Below are positions 41,742 to 64,000 of a stretch of DNA of 64,000 nucleotides, piece by piece (positions within the stretch are counted from its first letter, which is position 1; the number at the start of each line of letters is the position of its first letter). Position numbers and translations under genes: made by a program. This stretch comes from Promethearchaeota archaeon (GTDB lineage: Archaea; Asgardarchaeota; Lokiarchaeia; Sigyniarchaeales; SOKP01). The DNA lies in the NCBI GenBank assembly GCA_016839555.1, contig JAEOUA010000010.1, forward strand, positions 96,001-160,000, in the 5' to 3' direction. The notes beneath the pieces were generated by a model, which was given only the letters and a program-made list of their open reading frames with translations, made no database searches and had not been told where the DNA came from.

Positions 41742-42986
41742 TTAATAGTTAAATTGCTTTAATCGATCAACTGTAGTATACAATCGTTTGCCTCCTCTGC
41801 GGAGATAATCCATTGCCTCTTCTATTCCCTCAATAGTCAAATTATACATAGGGATAAGGCTGGAAATTATCCTTCTGGTCCAAGGTTGCCATTCGAATCT
41901 AATAAGTTCTGGATTAAGCCAGACGGTATTATTCTTAAAATGATCTTTAATTTCTCTTAAATAATAGATGCCCGGCATTTCATTTCGATGATAATAGTAT
42001 ATTGATCCATATCGTTCGGTAAGTTCCCATGAGGCCATGGCAGCATCGCCAACTATTACAATTTTGTAATTCTTATCGTATTTTTTAAGAAATTCATCAA
42101 AATCGATGGCTTCTTCGGGATTTCTCTGAGCATTTTCATAAAGAGTTTCATAAATACAATTATGAAAATAGTAATATTTAAATTTCTTCCAATGGGACAT
42201 GTTATTGGCTGCAGAAAAGAGCTTATTTACTAAATGAGCATATGGCGTCATCGAGCCACCCACATCCATTAATAAAAGCAGCTTTACATTATTTTTTCTT
42301 CGCTTTTCAAATACAATTTCAATATCTCCCCCGTTTTTTGCAGTTTTATCAATGGTTTTATCAATATTAAGCTCATCTAACTTACCGATTTCTTCCAATT
42401 TTCGTAGCCGCTTAAGAGCTACTTTAATTTGTCTCGTATCTAATACAATATCCTTGCGATAATCTCGAAATATCCTTTTTTGGGCAATTTGTACTGCCAT
42501 GCGCATTCCTGAGCCCCCACCTAGTCTCATTCCCATCGGATTGCGTCCTGAATGCCCGAATTGGGCTTCACCTCCAGTACCTATCCATTGATTCCCAAAA
42601 TTATGCTCTTCATCTTGTTTTTGCATTAGCTCCTCAAAATGTTGTTGAAGTTCTTCTATGTTAAAATTCATTTGCAAAAATTCTTGTAGTTCTTTTCGAT
42701 ATTGTGGATCAATTTCATCTAAATCTAATGGCTTTTCTAACCAATCCCAGATTTGTTGCTTAATATCATCCGGAAATTTTAATTGGGCATCCTTAAAAAA
42801 ATTCGCAAATGCTATATCATATACATCAAATTGATGCTCATTTTTGCAGAAAATCGAACGAGAAATATAATAAAATTGTATCATATTGCTAATTAAACCT
42901 TTATCGAGCGCTTCCATTAGGGTCATGTATTCTATAAGGCTTACAGGTAAGCGCTCTTTAAGGTAGTAAAAGAATTCAACAAACAA
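41742..42986 (-). CDS. VWA-domain CoxE-like partner of MoxR AAA+ ATPase
   Basis: WIGTGG, LLMDVGGSMTPY (MIDAS-like), YFHNC, VGDAAM, WLNP; directly downstream of the AAA gene. Confidence 0.9.
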   Translation of the reverse strand: MFVEFFYYLKERLPVSLIEYMTLMEALDKGLISNMIQFYYISRSIFCKNEHQFDVYDIAFANFFKDAQLKFPDDIKQQIWDWLEKPLDLDEIDPQYRKELQEFLQMNFNIEELQQHFEELMQKQDEEHNFGNQWIGTGGEAQFGHSGRNPMGMRLGGGSGMRMAVQIAQKRIFRDYRKDIVLDTRQIKVALKRLRKLEEIGKLDELNIDKTIDKTAKNGGDIEIVFEKRRKNNVKLLLLMDVGGSMTPYAHLVNKLFSAANNMSHWKKFKYYYFHNCIYETLYENAQRNPEEAIDFDEFLKKYDKNYKIVIVGDAAMASWELTERYGSIYYYHRNEMPGIYYLREIKDHFKNNTVWLNPELIRFEWQPWTRRIISSLIPMYNLTIEGIEEAMDYLRRGGKRLYTTVDRLKQFNY

Positions 42987-43064: not shown

Positions 43065-44008
43065 TTATGTTGGAAATTTGAGCTTATCCAAGGCAACCTC
43101 TAAGTCTTTTTCCTTTTTTATTAGGGTGCCTAAAAATGGAAAGCTATTCTTAAATTTCTCTATTGAGATGCCGCTTTTGAGCAATACTCCAATCCAATCT
43201 AATAATTCTGAAGTGGAGGGCATTTTACGTAGATTTGTAATTGCTCTTAGTTGGTAAAATTTCTTAATACATTCATTTAAAAGGTTATCTTTCAAATTAG
43301 GATAATGGATCTTACAGATCTCCCTCATGAACTCTTTATCTGGAAATTCAATGTAATGAAAAACACATCTTCTTAAAAACGCATCGGGTAATTCCTTCTC
43401 ATTATTGGATGTAATTATAACAATAGGTCGATGTTTAGCTTTGAAAAATTCATCTGTTTCCTTTATATAAAATTCCATTACGTCTAATTCCTGAAGCAAA
43501 TCGTTCGGAAATTCTATTTTCCGTAGAATATAGTCAGTTATATTCTATATCGGCTTTATCGATTTCATCGATAAGAAGAACGACTTGCTCCTCAGATACA
43601 AATGCTTGTCCTAACGGTCCGAGCTCGATATAATCATGGATGTTATTTACATCCCTCTCCTCGCTACCAAACCTACTATCGTTTGATCTCCAAGTTATAA
43701 TTTAACTTTGAATTAATCTCTTAATAGTATCATATTGGTAGCAGCCAAAAATTGCTTCACTGGTCGATTTAATGTTCCATATTATCAATCTTTTACCTAT
43801 GGCTTCTGCTATTGCATGTGCAAGGAGAGTTTTTCCCGTTCTGGTAGAAATTAACATATTAAAATCTATTTCCAGGCTCTCCTTTTACGAGCAATGGTCG
43901 AGCTAAGGCTATTGACACATTTACTATGTTTTGTAGCTGCGGATCTGCGATATATTTTATGTTTGCGGTATTTACATTTCCTTCGAATTGATTAAAGGTT
44001 TGACTCAT
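43065..44008 (-). CDS. MoxR/CoxD-type AAA+ ATPase, 4 exons (44008-43870, 43838-43713, 43682-43549, 43517-43065), 283 aa after splicing
   Basis: Exon lengths 139+126+134+453 = 852 nt = 283 aa + stop: MSQTFNQFEG...RPLLVKGEPG^TGKTLLAHAIAEA...YQYDTIKRL^NDSRFG...VVLLIDEIDKAD^IEFPNDLLQELD...IITSNNEKELPDAFLRRC... The ORF track calls only most of exon 4. Confidence 0.9.
43518..43548 (-). other. Putative BHB intron 3 (31 nt) just after Walker B
   Basis: ATAGAATATAACTGACTATATTCTACGGAAA; helix GCCG/CGGA (one G.A), bulges AU^A and AA^A, perfect 9-bp stem UAGAAUAUA/UAUAUUCUA. Confidence 0.85.
43683..43712 (-). other. Putative BHB/BHL intron 2 (30 nt, in-frame TAA)
   Basis: TTCAAAGTTAAATTATAACTTGGAGATCAA; helix GAUU/GAUC, bulges AA^U and AA^A, intron stem UCAAAGUUA/UAACUUGGA, exon stem UACUAUU/GAUAGUA. 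Confidence 0.85.
43839..43869 (-). other. Putative BHB intron 1 (31 nt) inside Walker A
   Basis: ATAGATTTTAATATGTTAATTTCTACCAGAA; helix CUGG/CCAG, bulges AA^A and AA^C, intron stem UAGA/UCUA, exon stem AAGGAGAG/CUCUCCUU. Confidence 0.88.
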
Positions 44009-44368: not shown

Positions 44369-45472
44369 TTAAGTTGATAGTCCACCATCGTTTATAGTCC
44401 ACTTTTTAGTAGTCTCAAGGTAATTATGGGCATGTTGAGCATCGCTGCTATATTGTACACTGCCTACCCCAAGAGTGACACTTTCTTGCAATGTTGTTAA
44501 ATTTGACCATCCAATGAGCAAGCTATCATAATTCTCAGGTGTTAATGCACTATAGTTGAACATTGCGGTCATATCTGTGACGCTTGACACATTCCAGCTA
44601 CTAATATCCTGGTTAAAAACACCAGCACCAAAGAACATATAGCTCATATCCTCAACTTTTGACACGTTCCAGCTACTAATATCCTGGTTAAAATCATAAG
44701 CACTACCAAACATGCTACTCATGGTTGTCACACTCGATACGTCCCAATTCCCAATATCTTGATTGAACGTATTAGCACCTGTAAACATGCTACTCATGGT
44801 TGTCACACTCGATACGTCCCAATTCCCAATATCTTGATTGAACTTATTAGCATAAAAGAACATAAAGTTCATATCTTCGACATTCGAGACATCCCAGCTA
44901 TTCATGCTTGGTACGGTATCAAGAGTAGAGCAATGCCGAAACGCAAAAGATAAATCAGTTGTTCCTGTTAAATCCAAAATGTCCGTTGCTGTAATATTAA
45001 GATTAGAGCACCCATAAAAGTAGCCACCTGAATTTCCTAATCGTAAAGAACCCCATTGCTTAATTTCAAGCAGTTTATCTTTATCTCCTCCGTAATGAAA
45101 TCTCCAGCCAATAATTTTTCCAGTGATACTAATGGTATATACACCTTCTGAAGCATATGTGTGATTTACTTCAGATTGGTTCCACTTCATGATCGTGGCA
45201 TTAGTCCCATCACCCCAGTAAACAGTAAAATTATATTCTCCAAATTCTTCCAAAGGTAATTGCACTTCATCGGGATTAGTTGTCCCAGATTTTGAAGTAT
45301 TCCATACTGAGATAAATGCGTTTTCTGGTACTTGATCCCCTCCGGGAGGTAATAAGAATAAATTGCCTTCCTCTGCTTCTCGCGGCCAGAAAGCGATTGA
45401 TAACCCAATAGCTACTCCACCCACTATTAACACAGCGATAATTACCACTGCAAGTGTTTTTTTACTAATCAT
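44369..45472 (-). CDS. Membrane-anchored BspA/DUF285 repeat surface protein with PKD-like domain
   Basis: N-terminal TM; YNFTVYWGDG...HTYASEGVYTISITG; 25-aa repeats FNQDIGNWDVSSVTTMSSMF. Confidence 0.9.
   Translation of the reverse strand: MISKKTLAVVIIAVLIVGGVAIGLSIAFWPREAEEGNLFLLPPGGDQVPENAFISVWNTSKSGTTNPDEVQLPLEEFGEYNFTVYWGDGTNATIMKWNQSEVNHTYASEGVYTISITGKIIGWRFHYGGDKDKLLEIKQWGSLRLGNSGGYFYGCSNLNITATDILDLTGTTDLSFAFRHCSTLDTVPSMNSWDVSNVEDMNFMFFYANKFNQDIGNWDVSSVTTMSSMFTGANTFNQDIGNWDVSSVTTMSSMFGSAYDFNQDISSWNVSKVEDMSYMFFGAGVFNQDISSWNVSSVTDMTAMFNYSALTPENYDSLLIGWSNLTTLQESVTLGVGSVQYSSDAQHAHNYLETTKKWTINDGGLST
44560..44930 (-). repeat. 75-nt-period intragenic repeats (DUF285 units; boundaries approximate)
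   Basis: 61-nt identical blocks at 44708-44768 and 44783-44843; 27-nt identical blocks starting at 44592 and 44667. Confidence 0.85.
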
Positions 45473-51055: not shown

Positions 51056-52192
51056 CTAACTTAAGGAACTATTAGTTTTTTTATTCGATATTAGTTTTTT
51101 CGACAAATATCCTCTAATCTTATAATATTTGAATTCTGTAATATAAGCAACTCCTAATGAAGCAATATTCACAAGAACATATGAAAAAATAAGAGCAACG
51201 ATATCATTCAAATAATTCATAAATATCGGTAAAATTAGATTCAGAAATGAAAAATGTAATAAATAAAAGGTAAAAGAATAGTTTGCCATGAATATTATAC
51301 TTTTTTTTACTTTTTCGGGATATTTAAGTTCAGTATATTGAGAAAATACAAATATACATAAAATTGTTCCAGTAAAAAACAAAAAATATACAATACCAAA
51401 TGGATCCTGATGGGTTATAAGCCTAATCATGGCCAATATAAAAAATAAAATTGCTAAAACTACGCTAATATATCTAATCCTTTTTTTAATGGTGTCCTTA
51501 TTTGAACTTTTTACAATTGCTGCATCTAATTTGTTCATTAACAATATAAAAGCAACTCCAAAACACCAAATGACTACACATATGATTTTATGCCATATAC
51601 GTAAACCAAAAATTACAACTACTAATAGAAATCCAAATAGAGCAAGGATAATGAAATAGAGATATTTTTTTTTAGTAGTTCTGGTCCCTAATAGAAGCCA
51701 GCCAAAGACCATATAGAGGAACCAAATAGGCGGTAATGCCCATAATTGATGAGCAGTTCCAAATGTATAAATACCAAGCGCAGAATCGTTTAAAAAAAGT
51801 AAGGTAATGATAAATGAGACAATATTATAAGAATTTGATATATCTTTTCCACCAAAGAAATTTAACCATACAGCATCAAGAAAAATTATGATAATCAATA
51901 CTAATAAAAGGCTCGGATAAACTCTTGAAAATCTATTAATAATAAATTCTTTAAAATCATAAGTTTCTCTTTTCATTTTCTTGAAAACGTTATGAGAGAT
52001 TAATAATCCGCTCATTAAAAAAAGAAATATTAAGCCAGGAGTACCGATAAATTCTCCTGTTCTAAAGAAGCCCAATCCTTGAATTCCGTGGGCAAATCCT
52101 ATTAATTGTGCCGAAAGGATTCTAATTATGTAAAGATTTATAGAAGCAGTTTCCGAAAACTCAAATTTATAATTATCATCCATAAATAGCAT
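51056..52192 (-). CDS. Acyltransferase-3 (OafA-like) membrane protein, copy 1
   Basis: R...HG, FLMSGLLI, NRFSRVYP, HQLWALP, SFTFYLLH. Confidence 0.85.
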   Translation of the reverse strand: MLFMDDNYKFEFSETASINLYIIRILSAQLIGFAHGIQGLGFFRTGEFIGTPGLIFLFLMSGLLISHNVFKKMKRETYDFKEFIINRFSRVYPSLLLVLIIIIFLDAVWLNFFGGKDISNSYNIVSFIITLLFLNDSALGIYTFGTAHQLWALPPIWFLYMVFGWLLLGTRTTKKKYLYFIILALFGFLLVVVIFGLRIWHKIICVVIWCFGVAFILLMNKLDAAIVKSSNKDTIKKRIRYISVVLAILFFILAMIRLITHQDPFGIVYFLFFTGTILCIFVFSQYTELKYPEKVKKSIIFMANYSFTFYLLHFSFLNLILPIFMNYLNDIVALIFSYVLVNIASLGVAYITEFKYYKIRGYLSKKLISNKKTNSSLS

Positions 52193-52331
52193 TTGATAAT
52201 TTTTTATTTCATTAAAATTTTACAATTTTTATTGATATTTATTTACTTTAAAATTTTTGATAAAATATAATATTTTTAATATGAAAATTATTATTTTCGT
52301 CCCTTAAAGATTGGAATTTTGTTTTCTTAAT

Positions 52332-53462
52332 TTAACTCTCTAATTTGAATTTTTTTAGTAAGTAATAATAAATGCGATCTGCCTTCATTTCTGTGAAATA
52401 AGCGACAATTAGAGAGATTAGATTAACTAATATAAATAAAATAAAGAAAACTAAAATATAATTAAGATATTTCCTTAGAAATTCCATTAAAAGATTGTAT
52501 ATTGAAAAATGTAATAGATATAATGTAAGTGAATAATTTGACATAAAAATTATACCCTTTTTTAGCTTTTCAGGATAACTAATTCTAGTATACTGTGAAA
52601 AAACTATAATACAAAAAATTACACCAATTAATAATAAATAATATAAGGTATCAAAAGGATCATTGTGAAAGTATAATCTTATATAGGCTAAAATAAATAA
52701 AATTAAAGCATTAGCAACGCAAAACACTTTTATTTTTTTTTTTATATTATTTTCTTTTTTATCTTGATTTTCCATAATAAATTCTGATTTCTTATCAATA
52801 TATAAATCCATTTTATTTATAAAATATGAAAAGAACACCCCTAAAAACCAAATCAATGAATAATGTATTTTAATCCATATGTGATATCCCATAATTACAA
52901 GGATTAACGGAAAAATAAACAATATTAAAAGAATATAATAAATGTATTTTTTTTTTACAGTCCTTTTTCCTAATAAAAGCCATCCAAAAAATAAATAGCT
53001 CCACCAAAATAATGGAAAAGGCCATAATTGACGAGCTGAGCAAAAGGCGGTATATCCAATTGCAGAATCATTTAAGAAAAGTGCTGTAAAAATAAAAGTC
53101 AGAATATTACATGCGTTATATAAATCCTTTCCCCCCAGAAATACAATCCAAAAAGTATCAATAAAAATGATTAAAATAAGTACTAGCATGAGGTTAGGAT
53201 ATATTCTTGAGAATCTTCTTAAAAAATACTTCTTAAAATCATAATTTTTTTTCTTTATTTTTCCAAATGTTGAATAGGACACAAGTAATCCGCTTATTAA
53301 GAAAAAGAACATTAATGCTTGAGAACCAATATAATCTCCTAATTGGAATAACCCAATACCTTCGACTCCATGAGCAATTGTTATTAATTGAGCAGATATA
53401 AATCGAATAAGATATAGATTAATAGAGGCAGTTTCAGAAAATCTAAAATTATAATCTTCCAT
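52332..53462 (-). CDS. Acyltransferase-3 membrane protein, copy 2
   Basis: FFLISGLLV, RRFSRIYP, SLTLYLLH. Confidence 0.85.
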   Translation of the reverse strand: MEDYNFRFSETASINLYLIRFISAQLITIAHGVEGIGLFQLGDYIGSQALMFFFLISGLLVSYSTFGKIKKKNYDFKKYFLRRFSRIYPNLMLVLILIIFIDTFWIVFLGGKDLYNACNILTFIFTALFLNDSAIGYTAFCSARQLWPFPLFWWSYLFFGWLLLGKRTVKKKYIYYILLILFIFPLILVIMGYHIWIKIHYSLIWFLGVFFSYFINKMDLYIDKKSEFIMENQDKKENNIKKKIKVFCVANALILFILAYIRLYFHNDPFDTLYYLLLIGVIFCIIVFSQYTRISYPEKLKKGIIFMSNYSLTLYLLHFSIYNLLMEFLRKYLNYILVFFILFILVNLISLIVAYFTEMKADRIYYYLLKKFKLES

Positions 53463-53501
53463 GAATAAAAATTAATAATTGTTTAAGGTTTTAAAATTAT
53501 A

Positions 53502-53552
53502 TCATTCATTTTTTAAATATCTAAATTTATTTTTATTATCCATGAATAGCAT
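53502..53552 (-). pseudogene. 5' stub of another acyltransferase paralog (MLFMDNKNKFRYLKNE*)
   Basis: Start and upstream sequence (ATCAAATGCTATTyATGGAT) duplicate those of copy 1 (MLFMDDNYKFEF). Confidence 0.55.
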
Positions 53553-53644
53553 TTGATAAATTATTTCATCTTAAAATTTTTTTATCATTTAATTATATTT
53601 TTAAATTAAAACAAAAAATTCTCCAAAGATCTTTATTTTTTAAA

Positions 53645-53968
53645 TTATTTCTCCATATTGAATTTTTTGAGAAAAAATTTAGAGATATTAAACGTCTGTA
53701 CCTCTGAAAAAGAAGCTATAAGTATACTTAAAAAATTTACAGCAATGTAAACAATAATTAACAAACTTAGATTATTCATAGTATCTTTAAATGGAGCATA
53801 TAACCAAATTACTGGATAATTTAATAAATAAATAGTGAAGGAATAGGATGCTATTAAATTTATAATTTTTTTAATTTTTTTGGGATATTCAAAGGAACTA
53901 TATTGGGTGAATATAAAAAAGAAGCAAAATGAACCCGATATTAATAGATTATAGAGTATTCCAAACAT
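53645..53968 (-). pseudogene. C-terminal fragment of an acyltransferase-3 paralog
   Basis: QYSSFEYPKKIKK...SYSFTIYLL...ASFSE; lacks the N-terminal ~260 aa. Confidence 0.75.
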
Positions 53969-54318
53969 CCCAAAAAACTATTCACAGAAATTTATTTTAT
54001 ATTTCAGTCAAGGAATAAATAATCACAGAATTGACAGAATTGAACGATGTAAGGAAACGGAAACATTAGAAAAAGAGGTTTTTAGCCTTGGGTTGTTCGA
54101 TCCTAATAGAATTTTCATAATTTTAACATATGGAGTCTATAACTTAGATTGAATTTTTATATTTTTTTATTTCTAACAATATTATTTTATATTTTCATTT
54201 TTTTTCATTAATATTTTCTAAGCTTAAAATAAAATTACAAGGAATTATCTTAAAAAGATCAGAAAATTCTAATCTAAAATATAATTTATTAAGAACTAAA
54301 GATTAAACGATATATAAA

Positions 54319-55425
54319 ATGGAATATAAACATTTCAATTTTTCTGATTGCCTCTCTAATAATATTAATATAATTCGAATACTTACCATTCAAATTATAG
54401 TCATATCTCATGGGTTAGAAAATATTCATGCAATAGGAATAGCAAATCCCATAGGAGTTGCTTGTTTTAATTTATTAATGTTAATAAGTGGCTTATTAAT
54501 ATCTTATTCCACTTTAACAAAAAAGAAGGAAGAAAGCTATGATTTTAGGAAATTCTATATAAGAAGATTTTCGAGAATATACCCAGTTTTTATAACAGTA
54601 TTAATTATAATTGTCTTTCTTGATGGGTTGAATAAATATAATTTTTTCCATCATTTTGATACATTTGTTGCTACTATACTCCTTTTGAATAATTCTGCAC
54701 TTGGAATTAGTTATTATGGTGCTAACCGTCATTTATGGATTCTCCCATTGCTATGGTGGCTAACGCTTTTGTTCGGATGGCTACTTATTGGATTCAGAAA
54801 TACAAAAAAGAAATATATTTATTTTATTGTTTTGGGATTTTTTTCCATTATAGTTATAATTAATTTATATACTTGTTTTAGAACTTTTTCTCTTGCGAGA
54901 TTATATTATCTGATTGTCTGGTTTATAGGTGCCAGTTTCCCATTACTTATTAGTTATGTAAATAATTATATTGAGCGTAAATCAATTAAAGATGGAGGAA
55001 ATGAGAAAGTCAATAATAACTTAGAAAAAAAATTTAAATATGGCTTTTTATGTCTTTCAATTATCTTTTTCATTTTGTCTTCATTTTATTTAAATAATCC
55101 TTATGGGTTAATATTTAATTTATTATTTGCTAATTTCATTATCTTTTTACTGGCCTTTTCCCAATTCATTCACTTTACTTATCCCAAAAAGGTAAAAAAA
55201 GTAATAAATTCTCTAGCTAGTTATTCTTTTACGTTTTTTTTATTTCATTTGACATTATTTAATCTCTTTTTAAGCTCAAGTCAAGGATATTCAGATTTCA
55301 TATTTTTTTATATCATTGCTAATGTGCTCTCTTTTAGTATTGCACTTCTAACGGAAATGAGGGCTCCACAAATAAATAAATATCTGTTGAAAAAATTCAA
55401 TTTGGATACAAAAGTAAAAAAATAG
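54319..55425 (+). CDS. Acyltransferase-3 membrane protein, copy 3 (inverted orientation)
   Basis: ISHG, LISGLLI, RRFSRIYP, RHLWILP; closest to 61674-62837 by eye. Confidence 0.85.
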   Translation: MEYKHFNFSDCLSNNINIIRILTIQIIVISHGLENIHAIGIANPIGVACFNLLMLISGLLISYSTLTKKKEESYDFRKFYIRRFSRIYPVFITVLIIIVFLDGLNKYNFFHHFDTFVATILLLNNSALGISYYGANRHLWILPLLWWLTLLFGWLLIGFRNTKKKYIYFIVLGFFSIIVIINLYTCFRTFSLARLYYLIVWFIGASFPLLISYVNNYIERKSIKDGGNEKVNNNLEKKFKYGFLCLSIIFFILSSFYLNNPYGLIFNLLFANFIIFLLAFSQFIHFTYPKKVKKVINSLASYSFTFFLFHLTLFNLFLSSSQGYSDFIFFYIIANVLSFSIALLTEMRAPQINKYLLKKFNLDTKVKK

Positions 55426-55560
55426 ATTTTGAGATATTAAATAAAAAATGTTTTTTTTATAATACATGAATTATAATTATAATAAGGGAAATGAACATAT
55501 TATAAAACCATAAAAAAAAATTATTGAATAATATAAATAATATAAAATTTGGGGGGAATA

Positions 55561-55812
55561 ATGAAACGCTTTAGATTTTCTGAAACAACATCTATAAACA
55601 TAGATATACTTAGAGTTTATGCCTTTCAGACAGTTACAATTATGCTCCAAAAAATTGTTGTAGCCGATGAAGCACCAGCAATGACACGTATGGCAATTTC
55701 GTTCTTCGCAGGGCATGGAGTGATGGAAGATTTCCTCAGTCTTCCGCGATTTGTGCGTGATGCGTTTATCATGGAGTTATGGGAGGGACCTTGTGTTTAT
55801 GAATTACCTTAA
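55561..55812 (+). pseudogene. Chimeric remnant: acyltransferase N-terminus joined to an acyl-CoA dehydrogenase C-terminal fragment
   Basis: MKRFRFSETTSINIDILRV (55561-55641), then GC-richer AGHGVMEDFLSLPRFVRDAFIMELWEGP (55642-55790). Confidence 0.7.
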
Positions 55813-56009
55813 ATTTAAATACTACAAGAATCGTAATAGCAAAATAGCAAAAACAACATGGAAAAGCTCTCTATTAGCCGAATTCAGATAGCAATATGAA
55901 AAATAATAAGGTATAACTGAATTACTAAACTCTTAAAGGAAATAAACCAAATAAGCTCCATATCATACCTTTATCATTTCATATTTTCTATAAAAAATAA
56001 CTCATTGAA

Positions 56010-56525
56010 TTATGTTATCTTAATAGTTCTTTTACCAAGAATAAGCCATCCAAAAAACATATACAGCCACCAAAATACAGGTAGTGCCCATAAAGGGCGC
56101 AATGAGCCGAATCCACTTATTCCTATAGCGGAATCATTCAAAAGGAGTAGAGAAAACACAAATGATTTAAAACTATAAGCTTTAGTTGGTTTTACATCAT
56201 ACACAATAAAGATTAGATACCCATCTATCAATATGGTTAAAAAAAGCACTATTATTAATGGCGGATAAATTCGTGAAAACCTATTGACGAAGAATCTCTT
56301 AAATTCAAATTTTTTTTTATTCAATTTTGCGAATGTGCTATAAGAAATTAAAATTCCACTAATAAAAAAAAGCAATCCTAACGATGTAGCACCAAGCGTT
56401 GGTTTCTTATCAAAAGTAATAAATGCTTCTCTAGCATGAGTAAGTACAATTATTTGTATTGCAATACCACGAATTAAATTAAAATGGGTGGAGTTTGCTC
56501 GATTATATTTAAAATTATAGTCCAT
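56010..56525 (-). pseudogene. Truncated acyltransferase-3 paralog (N-terminal half)
   Basis: FFISGILI, NRFSRIYP, LWALP; stops after GKRTIKIT at 171 aa; downstream sequence is degenerate. Confidence 0.75.
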
Positions 56526-56743
56526 TTTTGAACATTAAAGACTTTTAATTTATTTGAATTGACTTAACAAGAATTTATCTTATATTTAGCTATATTTTTA
56601 TTAATAAATTGTTATTTTCTTATACTTAAATATCTAAAATTGTATAATTATGCTTATTTTAAAAAATTGGTAACATTTGTTTTGTTTTTAGGTAATTATT
56701 GACAATATATAATTTTGCATTAAGATTTATTTTTTTTTTAATG

Positions 56744-57862
56744 TTATGAAAATTTCTTTAGAAACAACTTTTTAATTTTTGAGGCTTGCATTTCACTAAA
56801 AGAGGCAACTAAAATAGACAAAATATTGATAATGATAAATATTAACAAAAATAGGAGTACATTATTCATTTCATTTATGAATAATTTATAGAAGAAAAAT
56901 ATTGATACATGTAGCAGATATAAAGTAAAAGAATAACTGGCCATAAATCTAATGATTTTTTTTATCATTTTAGGATATTTTATTTGTGTATATTGAGAAA
57001 AAATAAGAAAAAAACAAAAGGAAGCACCTAATAATAGACTGAAATCTATTGCAAACGCATTATGATGAGAAGATAAAATAAATAAAGAAGAAATAAACAA
57101 AACTATTGAAATAAAAAGGCTAATGAAATTAAGTAATCTTCTTCTAATCTTCGATTTATTATTTTTATCGGTATTAGGGGTTTTTTTTTGAATATATTTG
57201 TTCAATTTATTCAATGAATATGAAAAAAATACACCTAAAATCCATATGATAATACTTGTTATTTTTTTTTGAAATTGATATCCAAAAATTACTGATATTA
57301 AGATTAAACAAAAAAGTGCCAATATAAAAAAATATAAATATTTCTTACTTGTGCTCCTTTTCCCTAAAATAAGCCACCCGAAAACTAAGTAAGTCCACCA
57401 AAAAATAGGCAAAGTCCAAAGTTGTCCTGAGGATCCAAAAAAAGAGTATCCAAGAGCGGAATCATTTAAAAGAAGTAAATTAAAGAAAAATGTAGGAAGA
57501 TTATAATTAAATGGTGGATTTTTTAGAACAATTACAAATTGATAAGTGTCTATAAGAGTAACAATTCCTAGAATTAATAAGAATAAGGAATATATTCTTG
57601 AAAATCTGCTTATAAAGAATTGCTTAAAGCTATAAAGTTCATTATTCATTTTTGTGAATGTTGAATAAGCTATTAAAATTCCGCTAATCAAAAACAGAAA
57701 AGTTAATCCAGAGGCTCCAGCACTATGTAACTTCTGTATGTTAAGATAACCTTCTAATCCATGAGAAATTACTATTAATTGAGCACTAATCGCTCTTATT
57801 AAATCAAGATGTATAGAAAAGGTTTCTGAAAATTGAATATTATAATCTTTATGGAGATCCAT
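56744..57862 (-). CDS. Acyltransferase-3 membrane protein, copy 4
   Basis: LDLIR...SHG, FLISG, SRFSRIY, QLWTLP. Confidence 0.85.
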   Translation of the reverse strand: MDLHKDYNIQFSETFSIHLDLIRAISAQLIVISHGLEGYLNIQKLHSAGASGLTFLFLISGILIAYSTFTKMNNELYSFKQFFISRFSRIYSLFLLILGIVTLIDTYQFVIVLKNPPFNYNLPTFFFNLLLLNDSALGYSFFGSSGQLWTLPIFWWTYLVFGWLILGKRSTSKKYLYFFILALFCLILISVIFGYQFQKKITSIIIWILGVFFSYSLNKLNKYIQKKTPNTDKNNKSKIRRRLLNFISLFISIVLFISSLFILSSHHNAFAIDFSLLLGASFCFFLIFSQYTQIKYPKMIKKIIRFMASYSFTLYLLHVSIFFFYKLFINEMNNVLLFLLIFIIINILSILVASFSEMQASKIKKLFLKKFS

Positions 57863-57961
57863 ATCAAAAGATTCAAGACTTTGACAAAGTAATTAATTTT
57901 TTATTTTAAAATATTAATAACTTGAATAAATTTATCAATTAAGATATCAAGAATGATATTA

Positions 57962-59095
57962 TTAATCTAAATGAAATGTTTTTAATAAATAGTTTTCAAT
58001 TTTGGAAGCTCTCATTTCTGTAAAATAAGCGATGCCTATAGCCATAATATTGCTTAAAAAATAGATTAAAATAATAAAAAAAATTGGATTAAATCGGATT
58101 TTAAATATTGCAGTAACATATCCAGCTGAATATTGTATGAGAAATAAAGAATAAGTATAGCTTGAGACAAAATTTACGGGCTTTTTAATCTTTTCTGGAA
58201 TATTAATGTTTATATATTGTGAAAAGACAATGAAGAAAAAAAGGGAAGAATTTAATAATAATAGCATTACTAGCCCATAGGGATCAAGATGAGTTAATAT
58301 TCTAATTGCCGATAAAATATATAAGATTATGGAAATTGTTAAGGCTATAAAGCTCACTTTTTTTTTCAAGATTTTGGCTCTTTTTTCTGGATTTTCCGTA
58401 TATTTTGCAGACCTTTTCTTTATATAAAGATCAAATTTATTTATCAAAAAAGAAAATAGCGCACCTAAAAACCATAAAGATAAATATTCTACTTTATTTG
58501 AAGTCCATTCTCCTAGGCAAATGAAAATTAATATAAACGTAAAGAACCCTAAAACGAAGATATATATGTACTTCTTTTTTGTATTTCTAAACCCGAGTAG
58601 GAGCCATCCAAAAAACAAATAGGTCCACCAAAATAAAGGAAAAGGCCAAAGTTGGCGTGAAGTTCCGAAACAAAAAGGACCCCACATAGATTCTTGTAAA
58701 ATTAACAAATTCCATAAAAATGTTTGAATATTATAAGAGTTAATTATGTCAGGATTCCCCAAATAACCATAAAAATACCAATCTACAGTTGCCATAATAA
58801 TAAGAGCTAAAAATAAAGCAGGGTAGATTCTAGAAAACCGCTTTACCACAAATCTTTTAAATTCATATCTCTCATCATTCATCCTTCTTAAGGTAGAATA
58901 TGAGATTAATATCCCACTCATAGCAAAAAAGACTCCTAATCCAGGCGCACCTAGCATACCCCCTTTTAATTGAGAAATTCTTCCCATTACTCCATGACCT
59001 ATGACCACTAAATGAGCGGCGATTATTCTTATAATATTTAGATGAAAGGAGGCTGCCTCTGAAAACTTAAAGTTGTAATCCAAATCAAAAAGCAC
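57962..59095 (-). CDS. Acyltransferase-3 membrane protein, copy 5
   Basis: GHG, FFAMSG, KRFSRIYP; very similar to copy 6. Confidence 0.85.
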   Translation of the reverse strand: MLFDLDYNFKFSEAASFHLNIIRIIAAHLVVIGHGVMGRISQLKGGMLGAPGLGVFFAMSGILISYSTLRRMNDERYEFKRFVVKRFSRIYPALFLALIIMATVDWYFYGYLGNPDIINSYNIQTFLWNLLILQESMWGPFCFGTSRQLWPFPLFWWTYLFFGWLLLGFRNTKKKYIYIFVLGFFTFILIFICLGEWTSNKVEYLSLWFLGALFSFLINKFDLYIKKRSAKYTENPEKRAKILKKKVSFIALTISIILYILSAIRILTHLDPYGLVMLLLLNSSLFFFIVFSQYININIPEKIKKPVNFVSSYTYSLFLIQYSAGYVTAIFKIRFNPIFFIILIYFLSNIMAIGIAYFTEMRASKIENYLLKTFHLD

Positions 59096-59253
59096 CTAAT
59101 TTTAATTTTTAATAATGCTAACCATTTACTTTTTTAAATAAGATTTAATTTTTATATTTGAAATTCTTATAGGGTCATTATTCAATATAAAACATTTGCG
59201 ACTATAAATACTCCATTTATATTATTTTCCCTTAAAATTGAAATTTAATAGTA

Positions 59254-60378
59254 TTAAGAAGATAAATTAAATCTTTTTAATAAATAATTCTCGATTTTTG
59301 AAGCTCTAAGCTCAGTAAAATAAGCAATCCCGATTGCTAAAATATTACTTAGTATATATATCGAAATAATAAATAAGATAGCTGGAAGTTCTATTATAAA
59401 GGAAATAATATATCCTGCAGTATATTGTATTAAAAATAAAGAATATGTATAGCTAGAGACAAAATTTACGGGCTTTTTAATCTTTTCTGGAATATTTATG
59501 TTTACGTATTGTGAAAAAATTATAAAAAAGAAAAAAGAGCCATTTAACAATAATAAACATATTGTACCATAGGGATCAAGATGAGTTAATAATCTAATTG
59601 CAGATAATATATATAAGATTATGGAAATCGTCAAAGAAGTATATTTTATTTTATTTTTCAGATTATTTTTATCTTTTTCTTTGTTATTTTCTTTTTTTGC
59701 TGATTTTTCCTGAATATAAAGATCTAATTTGTTTAATATATAACCAAAAATTGCTCCTAAGAACCATAAAATTAAATAATCTAATTTGTTTGAAGTCCAA
59801 GGTCCGAGACATATAAAAATTAATATAAAAGTAAAGACTCCTAAAACAAAAATGTAAATATATTTCTTGTTTGTATTTCTAAACCCGAGTAAAAGCCATC
59901 CCAAAAACAAATACGTCCACCAAAAAAGAGGGAACGGCCATAATTGACGTGAGGTTCCGAAACATGTAGGACCAATCAGGGAGTCTTGCAAAATTAATAA
60001 ATTCCATAAAAAAGTGGGAATATTATAAGAGTTTAATATGTCAGGATTCCCAAAATAAATATAAAAAAACCAGTCTACAAATACCATAACAATAAGACTT
60101 AAAAATAAGGCAGGGTAGATTCTAGAAAACCGCTTTACCACAAATCTTTTAAATTCATATTCTTCATCATTCATCCTTCTTAAGGTGGAATATGAGATTA
60201 ATAGCCCGCTCATGCAAAAAAACACACCAAGTCCTGGCGCACCAAGTATTGCTCCACCTATTTGTGAGACTCTTCCCATTATTCCGTGTCCTATAACTAT
60301 TAAATGAGCGGAAATTATTCTTATTATGTTTAGGTGGAAGGATGCTGTCTCAGAAAAACGAAATTTATATTGAGTCAT
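59254..60378 (-). CDS. Acyltransferase-3 membrane protein, copy 6
   Basis: GHG, FFCMSG, KRFSRIYP; very similar to copy 5. Confidence 0.85.
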   Translation of the reverse strand: MTQYKFRFSETASFHLNIIRIISAHLIVIGHGIMGRVSQIGGAILGAPGLGVFFCMSGLLISYSTLRRMNDEEYEFKRFVVKRFSRIYPALFLSLIVMVFVDWFFYIYFGNPDILNSYNIPTFLWNLLILQDSLIGPTCFGTSRQLWPFPLFWWTYLFLGWLLLGFRNTNKKYIYIFVLGVFTFILIFICLGPWTSNKLDYLILWFLGAIFGYILNKLDLYIQEKSAKKENNKEKDKNNLKNKIKYTSLTISIILYILSAIRLLTHLDPYGTICLLLLNGSFFFFIIFSQYVNINIPEKIKKPVNFVSSYTYSLFLIQYTAGYIISFIIELPAILFIISIYILSNILAIGIAYFTELRASKIENYLLKRFNLSS

Positions 60379-60529
60379 TTGTATTAATTGTTTTTTATTA
60401 CTGTTAGAAGCTATGAATAAAAAAGAAAATCTATAAAACTTTTAAAATTTAATTATAATGTTTTTTTATAAACTAATTAATATTATTTTGCCATTCATTT
60501 GGATTTAATTATCTTTTTTTTGAATCTAA

Positions 60530-61648
60530 TTATTCTATATTAAATTTTCTTAATAGAAAATTATTAATTTTTTGGGATCTCATTTCTGTTGCGTAGGCTA
60601 TCAAGATCGACAAAAAGTTGCTGGAGAAATACCCAATAAAAAAGAGAAGCCCATTATTAATATCCCCTATAAATATTGTTAAGTAATTAAATAAAGAAAA
60701 ATGGACAATATAAAGCGTAAAGGTATAACTGGCCATAAATCTTATGATTTTTTTGAATCTTTCCTTATATTTAACTTGAGTATATTGAGAATAAATAAGG
60801 AGAAAAAAAACAAAACCAACTAAAATAACAAGATATTCAATATCATATGGCGTCAAATCTAATAGGAATAGAGATCCAATAGAACCAATTATAAATATTA
60901 TCAATGATAAGTATAAAAATATTTTATTAATTTTTTTTTGTCCGATCCAATTTTTATCTAATTGTTTCTTTTTTTGTATTATATGATTATATCTATTTAA
61001 TACGATCGTAATAAATATACCACAAACCCAGATAAAAAATAAGCCTGTATCGCCTATTCTATTTACTTTATACCATGGACCTAAATACACAGCTATGACC
61101 ATAAAAGCAAGGGTTCCCAAAATACCATAATATCTATTTTTATTCTTTAGATTCTTTTTCTCAAGCATTAACCAACCCAAGAATAAATAACTCCAAAAAA
61201 AATTTGGTAAGGTCCAGAGGTTATAAGAGGAGCCAAAATTAGGAATATTAAAAACAGAATCGTTAAGAAAAAATAAATTAAGGATGAAAATGAAAATATC
61301 ATAAGTTGCTAGCGTTTCTCCTGAAAGAATAAAAAAAAAGTCGATAATGACTAAAAAAACCATACTTAATAAAAAACTTGGATATATTCTGGAAATTCTA
61401 TTGAAAAAATATTTAGTAAACCCATAATCTTCTTGTTTTTCTTTAATTAAAAGTGAATAAGAAGTAAATATCCCACTTAAAAGAAAGATTAGAGGAAATG
61501 AGATAGAACCAAACACTCCAGGAGTTATAGGAGGTATTATTCCCATTATAGCCATTCCATGAGCGAAAGCTACATTCTGAATGGCAATAACTCTAATTAT
61601 ATCAAGATTTATTGAGGCTGTTTCCGAGAATCTAAAATCAAACTCCAT
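60530..61648 (-). CDS. Acyltransferase-3 membrane protein, copy 7
   Basis: LDIIR...AHG, FLLSG, NRISRIYP, NLWTLP. Confidence 0.85.
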   Translation of the reverse strand: MEFDFRFSETASINLDIIRVIAIQNVAFAHGMAIMGIIPPITPGVFGSISFPLIFLLSGIFTSYSLLIKEKQEDYGFTKYFFNRISRIYPSFLLSMVFLVIIDFFFILSGETLATYDIFIFILNLFFLNDSVFNIPNFGSSYNLWTLPNFFWSYLFLGWLMLEKKNLKNKNRYYGILGTLAFMVIAVYLGPWYKVNRIGDTGLFFIWVCGIFITIVLNRYNHIIQKKKQLDKNWIGQKKINKIFLYLSLIIFIIGSIGSLFLLDLTPYDIEYLVILVGFVFFLLIYSQYTQVKYKERFKKIIRFMASYTFTLYIVHFSLFNYLTIFIGDINNGLLFFIGYFSSNFLSILIAYATEMRSQKINNFLLRKFNIE

Positions 61649-61673
61649 GATATTAAAAATTAATTTTTACTTT

Positions 61674-62837
61674 TTAATAAATTCTAACTTTTTCTCTACC
61701 ATTTTTTGATAATTTTTGGGTTTTTGTCTCTAACCCAAACAATTTTAAAAGATAATGATAAATTTTCTCTGATTTCATCTCAGTAAAATATGCAATTATG
61801 AACGATAAAATATTGACATTAATATAGATAATTATAAAATAAATAACATTATCAAATGGTTTTAATAAGAAATTAAATACAGCTACATGGATCAAGAATA
61901 AGGTAAAGGAGTAACTCGCTATAAAATTTAAAGCTTTTTTAACTTTTTTTGGATATATAAAATCAGTATATTGAGAGATTATTAGAAGAAAAAAAACTGC
62001 TCCAGTTAAAAATAAATTATATACTAATTCATACGGGTTGTCAAATTTAAAGTAAATACCCCTCAATAGGGCCATAATAAATAAGAATGTGGAAATTGCT
62101 AGCGAAACGTATTTTACTTTTTTTTTTAATTGATTTTTTCTTTTCACTTCATCAAAATTATTTTTTAGAGATTTTTTTTCAATATACGTATTTAATCTAA
62201 TCATTAAAAATAAGAATACAGCACTTAATATCCATATAATTATATAATTTATTTTTTTAGTTGTTTGAGTCCCTAAACAAATTATAATGATTATTAAACT
62301 AAATAATGCCAGTATAATGATATACAAGAAATAATTTCTTTTAGTTGTCCTTAATCCAAGTAAAAGCCATCCGAAAAGCAAGTACATATACCAGAAAAGA
62401 GGCAAAAACCATAAATGACGATTAAACCCATAATAAGGAAATCCAAGTACCGAATTATTCAAAAGAATGATATTGATTAAAAATATATCAATATTTTCAA
62501 GAAACTTATATTTATTTAACCAATCAAAAAAAATGATAACTATAAATCCGATTAATAATACCGGATAAATTCTAGAGAATCTCCTCAAAAAATATCGTTT
62601 AAAATCATAGTTCTTATCCCTCTTTCCTTTAATAATTGAATAAGCAATAAGGAATCCGCTTATAAGCATCAAGAAAGTAAACCCAGAAACGCCAATAGGA
62701 TTGTCTAGAGGTATTGCTGCAATGTTTTCCAATCCATGACAAAATGCAATTGTTTGAATTGAAAAAACTCGTAAAATATTAATATGTATGGAAGCAGTAT
62801 CGGAGAGGGTGAAATTATTATTTTTCATATTAGACAA
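61674..62837 (-). CDS. Acyltransferase-3 membrane protein, copy 8
   Basis: CHG, LISGFLI, RRFSRIYP, RHLWFLP. Confidence 0.85.
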   Translation of the reverse strand: MSNMKNNNFTLSDTASIHINILRVFSIQTIAFCHGLENIAAIPLDNPIGVSGFTFLMLISGFLIAYSIIKGKRDKNYDFKRYFLRRFSRIYPVLLIGFIVIIFFDWLNKYKFLENIDIFLINIILLNNSVLGFPYYGFNRHLWFLPLFWYMYLLFGWLLLGLRTTKRNYFLYIIILALFSLIIIIICLGTQTTKKINYIIIWILSAVFLFLMIRLNTYIEKKSLKNNFDEVKRKNQLKKKVKYVSLAISTFLFIMALLRGIYFKFDNPYELVYNLFLTGAVFFLLIISQYTDFIYPKKVKKALNFIASYSFTLFLIHVAVFNFLLKPFDNVIYFIIIYINVNILSFIIAYFTEMKSEKIYHYLLKLFGLETKTQKLSKNGREKVRIY

Positions 62838-62918
62838 AATTAATAATTAATATCATCTAATAATTATTCAAATATTTAAAATCTTTAGAATTATAGTTAT
62901 GGATATTAATATTTGAGA

Positions 62919-64000
62919 TTAATCCTCCAAATTTAGCTTCTTCAATAAATATTTTTCAATATTTCTTGCTTTCCTTTCGGTAAAGGAGGCAATTAATATA
63001 GATAAAAGATTAGAAATTACATATCCTAATAAAAATAATAAGAAAGGATGAACAGTATCCCTAAACGGTAGTAAAAAATGATATGTCGGAAAATGTAGAA
63101 TATATAATGTAAAGGAATAGCTAGATAAGAATTTTGCAATTTTTTTTACTCTTGGATTAAATTTAAAGGTTGTATATTGTGAAAAAATATATAAGAACAA
63201 AATCGATAAAATTACTAACACGATATGATTTATATTGTATGTATCTAGAGTAAGAATTTGATTAAAGAGTGCTATTATATATAAAACTGCAGAAATCCCC
63301 CCATAGAATATAGGACTAGAAAAAATTCTTTTGACTAAATTTAACTCTTTATTTTCTATATGAGTTGAGATTCCTTTTTGTGGATTATTATCATTAATTT
63401 TGTATTTATCTCTCCCTTTATAATATTTATTCAATATTAAGAAAACAAAAACACCTGAAACCCATATATATAACATTTTAATATTATTGATCAAATTTTC
63501 TTTATAGAGAGGGCCACAAAATGTAAATAACATCATAAATGTAAAAAATATTAGAAAAAGATAATAATAAGCTTTTTTCTTCGTTGTTTTTTTCCCAAGA
63601 ATAATCCAACCCAAAAATAAATAAGACCACCAAAATATAGGCAAGGTCCAAAGAGGGTTTGCAGAACCAAAACTGGGCAATCCTAGTATGGATTCATTGA
63701 TTAATAATAAACAAGCTATAAAAGAGACAATATTATATGAATATATTGAGCGATCTAATTCATTAAAAGTTGCCCAATATCCATCAATAAAAATAATAAG
63801 GATTAGTGAAACTACCAAAGGGGGGTAAATTCTTGCGAAGCGATTAACAAAATATTTTTTAAAATCATAATCTTCTCTATCTAATTTATTAAAAAGTGAA
63901 AAAGTTGTTAAGAGTCCGCTTAACAGAAAGAATGTAATGATTGAGGTTTTACCTATTTCTATAGCTAGCTGCAAATCCAAAACTAAACCTAAACCATGAC
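62919..64000 (-). CDS. Acyltransferase-3 membrane protein, copy 9 (5' end beyond window)
   Basis: Frame open to the window edge (...HGLGLVLDLQL); FFLLSG, NRFARIYP, PLWTLP. Confidence 0.85.
   Translation of the reverse strand, partial: HGLGLVLDLQLAIEIGKTSIITFFLLSGLLTTFSLFNKLDREDYDFKKYFVNRFARIYPPLVVSLILIIFIDGYWATFNELDRSIYSYNIVSFIACLLLINESILGLPSFGSANPLWTLPIFWWSYLFLGWIILGKKTTKKKAYYYLFLIFFTFMMLFTFCGPLYKENLINNIKMLYIWVSGVFVFLILNKYYKGRDKYKINDNNPQKGISTHIENKELNLVKRIFSSPIFYGGISAVLYIIALFNQILTLDTYNINHIVLVILSILFLYIFSQYTTFKFNPRVKKIAKFLSSYSFTLYILHFPTYHFLLPFRDTVHPFLLFLLGYVISNLLSILIASFTERKARNIEKYLLKKLNLED

What the first reader, a model, noticed from the sequence alone, without database searches (positions are those of the whole stretch)
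43839..43869. Intron 1 splits the Walker A loop and has a near-textbook BHB
Seen: AAGGAGAG-C-[CUGG]-AA^A-UAGA...UCUA-[CCAG]-AA^C-G-GGAAAAA-CUCUCCUU. It has a perfect 4-bp Watson-Crick helix, two 3-nt bulges, closing pairs on both sides and an 8-bp exon-exon stem. Ligation yields CCT GGA A|CG GGA AAA ACT = PGTGKT. Unspliced, the frame stops after PGNRF*. The flanking exon codons also appear to serve as RNA structure.
Basis: seen in the sequence. Interest (0 to 1): 0.85.

Follow-up and report, generated by a model that had tools for sequence, protein, structure and literature searches.

The report
Spliced mini-intron in archaeal ATPase gene
A 31-base insert that breaks the ATP-binding-loop codons of a Lokiarchaeal (Asgard) ATPase gene has the exact RNA shape cut by the archaeal tRNA-splicing enzyme, so this messenger RNA is very probably spliced, something reported so far for only two archaeal genes.

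Summary
On the minus strand, 43869..43839 is a 31-nt insert between the second and third letters of ...GEPG|TGKT... of a MoxR-like AAA+ ATPase gene. About 110 orthologues in the same order lack it. Removing it and two similar inserts (43712..43683 and 43548..43518) gives a complete 283-codon gene under purifying selection.

At the boundaries fixed by the orthologues, the RNA forms a 4-bp helix CUGG/CCAG, two 3-nt bulges, an inner hairpin and a closing C-G pair. Only 11 of 200,000 shuffled inserts do the same. Two other organisms carry a 31-nt insert at this site, with compensatory changes in the hairpin. All three carriers fix the synonymous codons that build the motif.

The genome encodes a catalytic and a structural EndA subunit and RtcB.

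A 31-nt insert of the same design in the AMP phosphorylase gene occurs in 10 relatives with strong covariation.

Verdict: a bulge-helix-bulge pre-mRNA intron, confidence about 0.88.

Caveats:
- The outer helix is interrupted.
- A competing exon-exon helix exists.

Earlier notes of this scan flagged similar inserts in other genes of this same genome. No publication on Asgard mRNA introns of this type was found.

The parts
43065..44008 (-). MoxR-like AAA+ ATPase gene (pre-mRNA coding span; four exons, three mini-introns)
   Evidence: Joining 44008-43870, 43838-43713, 43682-43549 and 43517-43065 gives 852 nt, that is 283 codons plus a stop, colinear with orthologues. The intact orthologue P0001 hits PF00004 and PF07728. 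Homologues are named MoxR family ATPase of Lokiarchaeota/Promethearchaeota.
43870..44008 (-). Exon 1 (M1 to first letter of the Thr47 codon)
   Evidence: ORF 43859..44008 ends ...KGEPGNRF* if read through. Alignment to orthologues.
43839..43869 (-). Intron 1, 31 nt: the finding
   Evidence: Exact 31-nt gap against intron-less orthologues. BHB geometry tabulated. Shuffle test 11/200,000.
43872..43875 (-). Central BHB helix, exon strand CUGG (Pro codon letters 2-3 plus Gly codon letters 1-2)
   Evidence: Pairs 4/4 Watson-Crick with 43844..43841 in all three carriers.
43841..43844 (-). Central BHB helix, intron strand CCAG
43869..43871 (-). 5' bulge A-A-A; predicted cut between 43870 and 43869
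   Evidence: 3 nt between the central and inner helices. Cleavage rule from PMC12397907.
43838..43840 (-). 3' bulge A-A-C; predicted cut between 43839 and 43838
   Evidence: It is AGC in the two other carriers.
43845..43868 (-). Inner hairpin h' (10 positions per arm, loop UAUG)
   Evidence: 8/10 pairs in this genome and 10/10 in the two other carriers. There are 2 compensatory pairs, and the two U.U mismatches become U-A or U-G.
43876..43884 (-). Closing C (43876) and 5' arm of the exon-exon stem AAGGAGAG (43884..43877)
   Evidence: C 43876 pairs with G 43837. The stem pairs 8/8 with 43829..43822.
43822..43837 (-). Closing G (43837), 7-nt bulge GGAAAAA, and 3' arm CUCUCCUU (43829..43822)
43683..43712 (-). 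Intron 2, 30 nt, in frame but carrying TAA
   Evidence: Absent from most orthologues and shared with G002 and Ga0209918. Helix GAUU/GAUC, bulges AA^U and AA^A, inner helix 7-8 of 8 with several compensatory changes.
43518..43548 (-). Intron 3, 31 nt, just after Walker B
   Evidence: Shared with G004 and Ga0209918. A different 32-nt intron sits at the same site in G074, G108 and G109, where the exon GCC->GCA change is matched by CGG->CUG in the intron.
41742..42986 (-). Downstream partner gene, VWA_CoxE protein, uninterrupted
   Evidence: 414-aa ORF. PF05762, E 1.6e-8. Same order in the syntenic contig L172.

Best explanation

Proposed mechanism:
1. The gene is transcribed with the 31-nt insert.
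2. The last exon letters CUGG pair with CCAG near the insert's 3' end.
3. Two 3-nt bulges flank this 4-bp helix. The insert's own hairpin supplies the inner helix. A C-G pair plus an 8-bp exon-exon stem supply an interrupted outer helix.
4. The heterotetrameric splicing endonuclease (EndA alpha2beta2) cuts after the second nucleotide of each bulge, at 43870|43869 and 43839|43838.
5. RtcB joins the exons, restoring the Thr codon A|CG and the Walker A loop GEPGTGKT. The intron is released, probably as a circle.

Unspliced RNA can yield only a 49-residue peptide, so ATPase production depends on this splice and the two others in the gene.

Shown here: the anatomy; its absence from orthologues at exactly these bounds; conservation with compensatory change; selection on the exons; the presence of the enzymes.

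Inferred: cleavage, ligation and their positions.
For: (1) Exact 31-nt insert against intron-less orthologues. The gene was found in 117 of 154 genomes of the order, and this site is occupied only in G000 and G043.

(2) BHB geometry at those bounds. Chance is 11/200,000.

(3) Three carriers (G000; G043 in another genus; metagenome contig Ga0209918) all have 31 nt, the same central helix and the same 5' bulge. 92.8% of cells pair, against 36-52% when partners are slid. There are 2 compensatory pairs, and mismatches are repaired.

(4) The spliced CDS is 283 codons. pN is 0.09 and pS 0.76-0.86 against congeners, including one that shares intron 2.

(5) All carriers have the codons CCU-GGA-ACG, against 4 of 50 intron-less orthologues.

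(6) EndA catalytic subunit (E 5e-40 to A. pernix 3P1Z_B, with Tyr/His/Lys), plus a divergent second subunit that lacks the His. RtcB is present.

(7) At least 17 of the 28 tRNA genes found carry introns of 8-43 nt.

(8) Same design in another gene: a 31-nt AMP phosphorylase insert in 10 of 30 relatives. 96.9% of cells pair, 9 of 13 pairs show compensatory change, and 0 of 500 shuffles match. An exon His-codon third letter covaries with the intron.

(9) The sister genome lacks all three introns precisely.

(10) The cut positions fit PMC12397907.
Against:
- The central helix is invariant in the three carriers, so it has no covariation of its own at this site.
- RNAfold and RNAalifold prefer a competing exon-exon helix CCUG/CGGG.
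- The 3' bulge is closed by a single C-G pair followed by a 7-nt bulge, so the motif is not strictly hBHBh'.
- Crude genome-wide BHB-plus-ORF scans showed little excess over controls, so such introns are not numerous.
- Coupled transcription and translation would waste ribosomes on unspliced RNA.
Confidence: 0.88

Rival explanations
1. The gene is a pseudogene. The three ~30-nt inserts are unspliced insertions (small hairpin elements) that inactivated it.
For: Each insert carries an in-frame stop or shifts the frame. No RNA data exist. The closest relative has an intact, insert-free gene.
Against: - Apart from the three inserts the frame is perfect.
- pN/pS is about 0.11-0.12 against congeners, although synonymous sites are saturated. 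This includes G002, which shares intron 2.
- The same three inserts are kept in a genome whose gene is only 80% identical in DNA.
- Compensatory changes preserve the hairpins.
- The bounds fit a BHB far beyond chance.
Confidence: 0.04
2. The insert is skipped by another route: translational bypassing (as in phage T4 gene 60) or an unknown RNA-processing activity, not EndA/RtcB.
For: The insert is short, folds into a hairpin and has a stop codon soon after the take-off region. No enzymology has been done.
Against: - Bypassing needs matching take-off and landing codons. Landing on the next GGA would delete Thr-Gly from the P-loop, which is invariant in all orthologues.
- The exact frame restoration needs cuts at the BHB positions.
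- The exon-intron helix covaries in the sister case, AMP phosphorylase, which a ribosome hop does not require.
- The insert is far too small for a group I or group II intron or an intein.
Confidence: 0.05
3. Assembly or binning artefact.
For: The genome is a metagenome-type assembly: 12 contigs, with 6.4% contamination estimated.
Against: Homologous inserts at the same sites occur in independently assembled genomes and metagenome contigs: G043, G002, G004, G074, G108, G109, Ga0209918 and Ga0102944.
Confidence: 0.01

Closest known systems
cbf5 pre-mRNA intron of Crenarchaeota (Watanabe 2002; Yoshinari 2006; Yokobori 2009, PMC2738675)
   Same: - A short intron in a protein-coding transcript.
- Exon-intron junctions form a BHB-type motif, often relaxed.
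- The host has a heterotetrameric (alpha-beta)2 endonuclease.
- Patchy gain and loss among relatives.
   Different: - Different gene (AAA+ ATPase) and different lineage (Lokiarchaeia/Asgard).
- Three introns in one mRNA rather than one.
- Splicing is shown experimentally for cbf5 but not here.
HVO_1309 mRNA of Haloferax volcanii (PMC7714728; reviewed in PMC10485636)
   Same: An mRNA with a BHB cut by the tRNA splicing endonuclease. Together with cbf5 it is the only documented case, according to the 2023 review.
   Different: - A euryarchaeon with an alpha2-type enzyme that requires a strict motif.
- A single site.
- Here the coding frame of a conserved catalytic motif is restored.
Multiple non-canonical tRNA introns of Asgard archaea (PMC11291895; bioRxiv 10.64898/2026.10.13.758758)
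   Same: - Same size class (tens of nt).
- Same presumed enzymes.
- Same lineage.
- High intron load and repeated gains. This genome has introns in at least 17 of the 28 tRNA genes detected.
   Different: Those papers treat tRNA genes only. Neither mentions mRNA introns.
HAC1/XBP1 unconventional mRNA splicing in eukaryotes (Ire1 plus tRNA ligase; own knowledge)
   Same: It works alike: a structure-specific endonuclease cuts two sites in an mRNA, a tRNA ligase (RtcB in animals) joins the exons, and production of the active protein depends on the splice.
   Different: - The nuclease is Ire1, not the tRNA splicing endonuclease.
- The sites are twin stem-loops, not a BHB.
- It is regulated by stress. 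No regulation is shown here.

Membership tests
Archaeal BHB (EndA-dependent) intron | Two 3-nt bulges on opposite strands, separated by a 4-bp helix | tested here: met
   CUGG/CCAG with bulges AAA and AAC, in the register that restores the frame. Identical helix in three carriers.
Archaeal BHB (EndA-dependent) intron | Flanking helices h (outer) and h' (inner), as in the strict hBHBh' form | tested here: inconclusive
   h' is present: 8-10 of 10 pairs with compensatory change. The outer side is one C-G pair, then a 7-nt bulge, then an 8-bp stem (6-8 of 8 pairs in carriers). This is a relaxed or interrupted h.
Archaeal BHB (EndA-dependent) intron | Cuts after the 2nd bulge nucleotide yield a functional product | tested here: met
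   The predicted junction gives GEPGTGKT and a 283-codon ORF colinear with orthologues. Rule from PMC12397907. This is met in silico only.
Archaeal BHB (EndA-dependent) intron | Host encodes the splicing endonuclease and RtcB ligase | tested here: met
   Two PF01974 genes: one catalytic-like, one lacking the catalytic His. RtcB at 564 bits.
Archaeal BHB (EndA-dependent) intron | Absent from orthologues at exactly the intron bounds | tested here: met
Archaeal BHB (EndA-dependent) intron | Spliced RNA, circular intron or in vitro cleavage observed | not testable with these tools
Group I / group II self-splicing intron | Ribozyme core of hundreds of nt | tested here: not met
   The insert is 31 nt and a single hairpin.
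Translational bypass element (T4 gene 60 type) | Matching take-off and landing codons that give the conserved protein | tested here: not met
   The only downstream GGA landing would delete Thr-Gly of the invariant P-loop.
MoxR/CoxD-like AAA+ ATPase paired with a VWA protein (host gene) | AAA/AAA_5 domain with Walker A and B, followed by a VWA_CoxE gene | tested here: met
   P0001 hits PF00004 (E 3.6e-13) and PF07728 (E 1.1e-11). Downstream ORF hits PF05762. Database names.

The most novel reading that the evidence does not exclude
The ~30-nt hairpin introns may be a dynamic, possibly mobile class that colonises conserved-motif codons of many protein genes in one Lokiarchaeal family. Examples are the three in this ATPase, AMP phosphorylase in 10 relatives, porB and rnhB.

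Their presence or absence differs even between sister genomes. Clean simultaneous loss of all three introns suggests recombination with copies of spliced mRNA.

If so, endonuclease-based mRNA splicing, and some separation of transcription from translation, is routine in a close prokaryotic relative of eukaryotes.
Probability: 0.35. Interest if true: 0.9.

Novelty: new member of a known kind. Interest (0 to 1): 0.76.

Why it matters
A 2023 review counts only two archaeal genes, cbf5 and HVO_1309, whose mRNAs are processed by the tRNA splicing endonuclease, and expects more (PMC10485636). None was found reported from Asgard archaea in seven full-text searches.

This case has several unusual features:
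- A housekeeping-type ATPase mRNA needs three such splices.
- One splice sits in the middle of the Walker A loop.
- Synonymous exon codons are recruited into the splice motif.
- Intron-bearing and intron-free alleles occur in sister genomes.

It offers a compact, testable substrate: an 81-nt RNA and two small enzyme subunits. With it one can ask how an (alpha-beta)2 endonuclease reads relaxed motifs outside tRNA. One can also ask how such introns are gained and lost, and whether Asgard cells delay translation until splicing is done.

Tried and rejected

(2) Genome-wide counts of BHB plus ORF-joining candidates.
- timed out.
- Searches gave no excess over shifted-register controls. The noise came from adjacent genes in operons.
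- A narrower scan (26-34 nt, intron ending AA) gave 60 hits against about 47 at score 11 or more, and 6 against about 2 at score 12 or more.
- This allows only a rough guess of ten to twenty such introns. The hit lists were too noisy to curate.

(3) blastn-short of the three introns against the genome found no further copies. They are not a high-copy repeat.

(4) RNAfold MFE and RNAalifold do not draw the central helix. They choose the competing CCUG/CGGG pairing. I did not take this as evidence against a protein-recognised motif that lies 1.3 kcal/mol above the MFE.

(5) My simple scorer did not recover convincing BHBs for the argG and top6B leads from earlier notes within the ranges I searched. 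These were left unverified.

(6) An AUG in the intron-1 loop is in frame with exon 2 (ORF 43857..43702). It is not conserved in the other carriers and was rejected as a restart signal.

(7) The scan of genome contigs returned mostly bacterial homologues and one Promethearchaeum hit. It was useful only for naming the lineage.

Full report
**What is at the site.** On the minus strand, an ORF starting at 44008 reads MSQTF...LVKGEPGNRF and stops. The text TGKTLLAHAIAEA... continues in the next frame. Further on there is an in-frame TAA, and then another frame change. The window has 28% G+C.

The gene lies 78 nt upstream of an uninterrupted 414-codon VWA_CoxE gene. An intact orthologue (P0001, 283 aa) hits the AAA and AAA_5 families. 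Its database relatives are named MoxR family ATPase from Lokiarchaeota, Promethearchaeota or Promethearchaeia. The one named archaeal hit in the species-genome collection is a Promethearchaeum sp., which belongs to the Asgard kingdom.

**The insert is defined independently of any fold.** I searched the relatives, then all 135 genomes of the family, then all 154 of the order. The gene was found in 117 genomes, nearly always as one open frame of about 285 codons.

DNA alignment shows three clean gaps against these orthologues:
- 31 nt at 43869..43839
- 30 nt at 43712..43683
- 31 nt at 43548..43518

Joining the four exons gives 852 nt, that is 283 codons plus a stop, colinear with the orthologues.

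Against two congeners, non-synonymous differences are 0.09 per site. Synonymous differences are 0.76-0.86 per site, which is saturated. One of those congeners shares intron 2. The interrupted gene has therefore stayed under purifying selection.

**The BHB.** At the bounds fixed by the orthologues, the RNA has these elements:
- central helix CUGG/CCAG
- 5' bulge AA^A
- inner helix beginning UAGA/UCUA, 8 of 10 pairs, loop UAUG
- 3' bulge AA^C
- closing C-G pair
- a 7-nt bulge, then the 8-bp exon-exon stem AAGGAGAG/CUCUCCUU

The bulges lie 3' of the central-helix strand on both sides. Published crystal work places the cut between the second and third bulge nucleotides (PMC12397907). That rule gives A|CG, a Thr codon, and so GEPGTGKT.

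Only 11 of 200,000 shuffled inserts reproduce the helix, a 4-bp or longer inner helix and the closing pair in any of the four registers the GAA repeat allows.

Thermodynamic folding alone does not select this fold. The MFE and the RNAalifold consensus use a competing exon-exon helix CCUG/CGGG. Forcing the central helix and open bulges costs 1.3 kcal/mol. The motif is best described as a BHB with a good inner helix and an interrupted outer helix, which is close to textbook but not strict.

**Comparative support at this site.** Two other organisms carry a 31-nt insert at exactly this position:
- G043, a genome of another genus
- a metagenome contig, Ga0209918 (identical to Ga0102944). Its gene is 80% identical in DNA and has all three introns.

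Across the three carriers, the central helix, the 5' bulge and the closing pair are identical. In the inner hairpin, 93% of cells pair, with two compensatory double changes. The two U.U mismatches of this genome are U-A or U-G in the others. Overall 92.8% of cells pair, against 36-52% when partners are slid.

All three carriers use CCU-GGA-ACG for Pro-Gly-Thr. These are the synonymous letters that form the helix, the first bulge nucleotide and the closing pair. Only 4 of 50 intron-less archaeal orthologues have that combination.

The 8-bp exon stem has 8, 7 and 6 pairs in the carriers. None of 49 intron-less sequences reaches 8, and 9 reach 6. This is suggestive only: there are three carriers, two are related, and a congener without the intron has 7.

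**The other two introns and a sister case.** Introns 2 and 3 show the same design, with a 4-bp helix (3 of 4 pairs in intron 3 of this genus), 3-nt bulges and an 8-9-bp hairpin.
- Intron 2 is shared with G002 and Ga0209918, with several compensatory changes.
- The intron-3 site is occupied in G004 and Ga0209918 by the same 31-nt intron.
- In three genomes of another genus that site holds a different 32-nt intron, and there a synonymous exon change is matched in the intron.

Following leads from earlier notes of this scan, I checked other genes of the same genome. A 31-nt insert restores DKHSTGGVPGNK in AMP phosphorylase. Another, in porB, has a 4-bp helix and a 9-bp hairpin. A 28-nt one in rnhB restores LDEAGRGPV.

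The AMP phosphorylase insert is present in 10 of 30 relatives from 8 genera. In those ten, 96.9% of cells pair, 9 of 13 pairs show compensatory change, and no shuffle out of 500 reaches this. The third letter of an exon His codon covaries with the intron's partner base. This is strong evidence that the exon-intron helix of this intron class is selected.

**Enzymes.** The genome has two PF01974 genes.
- One is 198 aa, matches the Aeropyrum pernix catalytic subunit at E 5e-40, and keeps Tyr, His and Lys.
- The other is divergent and lacks the His.

This fits the (alpha-beta)2 type reported for Asgard archaea, which accepts relaxed motifs (PMC5829648). RtcB is present. ARAGORN finds 28 tRNA genes, 17 of them with introns of 8-43 nt.

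**Dynamics.** In a tree of the exon-4 protein, this genome (three introns) is sister, with support 100/92, to a 430-kb metagenome contig. That contig has a syntenic gene with no introns and different synonymous codons at the site. The other three-intron carrier groups with G002, which has intron 2 only. G043 sits with intron-less members of its own genus. Presence is therefore patchy at every depth, which means repeated precise loss, repeated gain, or both. Introns 1 and 3 match at 19 of 31 positions (6 of 20,000 shuffles), but no further copies exist in the genome.

**Limits.** My genome-wide scans were too noisy to count such introns. The best filter suggests only some ten to twenty.

**Literature.** Seven full-text searches found mRNA BHB introns only for cbf5 and HVO_1309, and Asgard papers only on tRNA introns.

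**Verdict.** The reading as an endonuclease-spliced pre-mRNA intron is well supported (about 0.88). It is a new member of a known kind. Interest is raised by the lineage, the three introns in one mRNA, the position inside the P-loop and the evidence for a wider class.

Noticed in passing
G000:C12:205678-205708 (locus L152:679-709): A 31-nt BHB insert in the AMP phosphorylase gene, splitting DKHSTGGVPGNK. It is present in 10 of 30 relatives across 8 genera. 9 of 13 pairs show compensatory change, including covariation between an exon synonymous letter and the intron.
   Followed up: yes
G000:C6:79408-79438 (locus L153): A 31-nt insert in porB with helix UCCA/UGGA and a 9-bp hairpin. Joining gives ...NTGIQESGGTPPYASTTT. 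Relatives were not checked.
   Followed up: partly
G000:C12 about 69950-69980: A 28-nt insert in rnhB between ...GLDEAGR and GPVLGPM, with helix AGGG/CCCU and bulges AGA and AAA. It was read by eye only; my scorer missed it because the inner stem has a mismatch.
   Followed up: partly
G000:C10 about 447265-447294, minus strand (locus L154): New candidate: a 30-nt insert with helix CAGG/CUUG and a 9-bp hairpin. Removing it joins ...DFDLHTG to DGNINIL, a deacetylase-like metal-site motif.
   Followed up: no
L172 (JGI Ga0374083_0189113, 124044-127895): The closest relative has the same PIN_2 / MoxR / VWA_CoxE gene order but an intron-free ATPase gene (85% nt identity; the VWA gene is 90% identical).
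   Followed up: yes
window 43838-43876, minus strand: An exon-exon helix CCUG/CGGG competes with the BHB central helix. After splicing it would extend the 8-bp stem into a 12-bp hairpin over the Walker A codons of the mature mRNA.
   Followed up: partly
window 43855-43857: An AUG in the intron-1 loop opens a frame continuous with exon 2 (ORF 43857..43702). It is absent from the two other carriers, so it is probably chance.
   Followed up: yes
window 51056-63998, minus strand: A run of nine same-strand ORFs of 353-387 codons, which looks like a tandem gene array. Not examined here.
   Followed up: no
window 44369-45472, minus strand: A 367-codon protein with a signal-like N-terminus, DUF285 repeats (E 1.7e-65) and a weak PKD match, directly upstream of the ATPase gene.
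   Followed up: no
G126, G131, G139 (loci L147-L150): In three fragmented genomes, contigs end within or next to the Walker A region of this gene. This could reflect strain mixtures with and without intron 1, or plain fragmentation.
   Followed up: no
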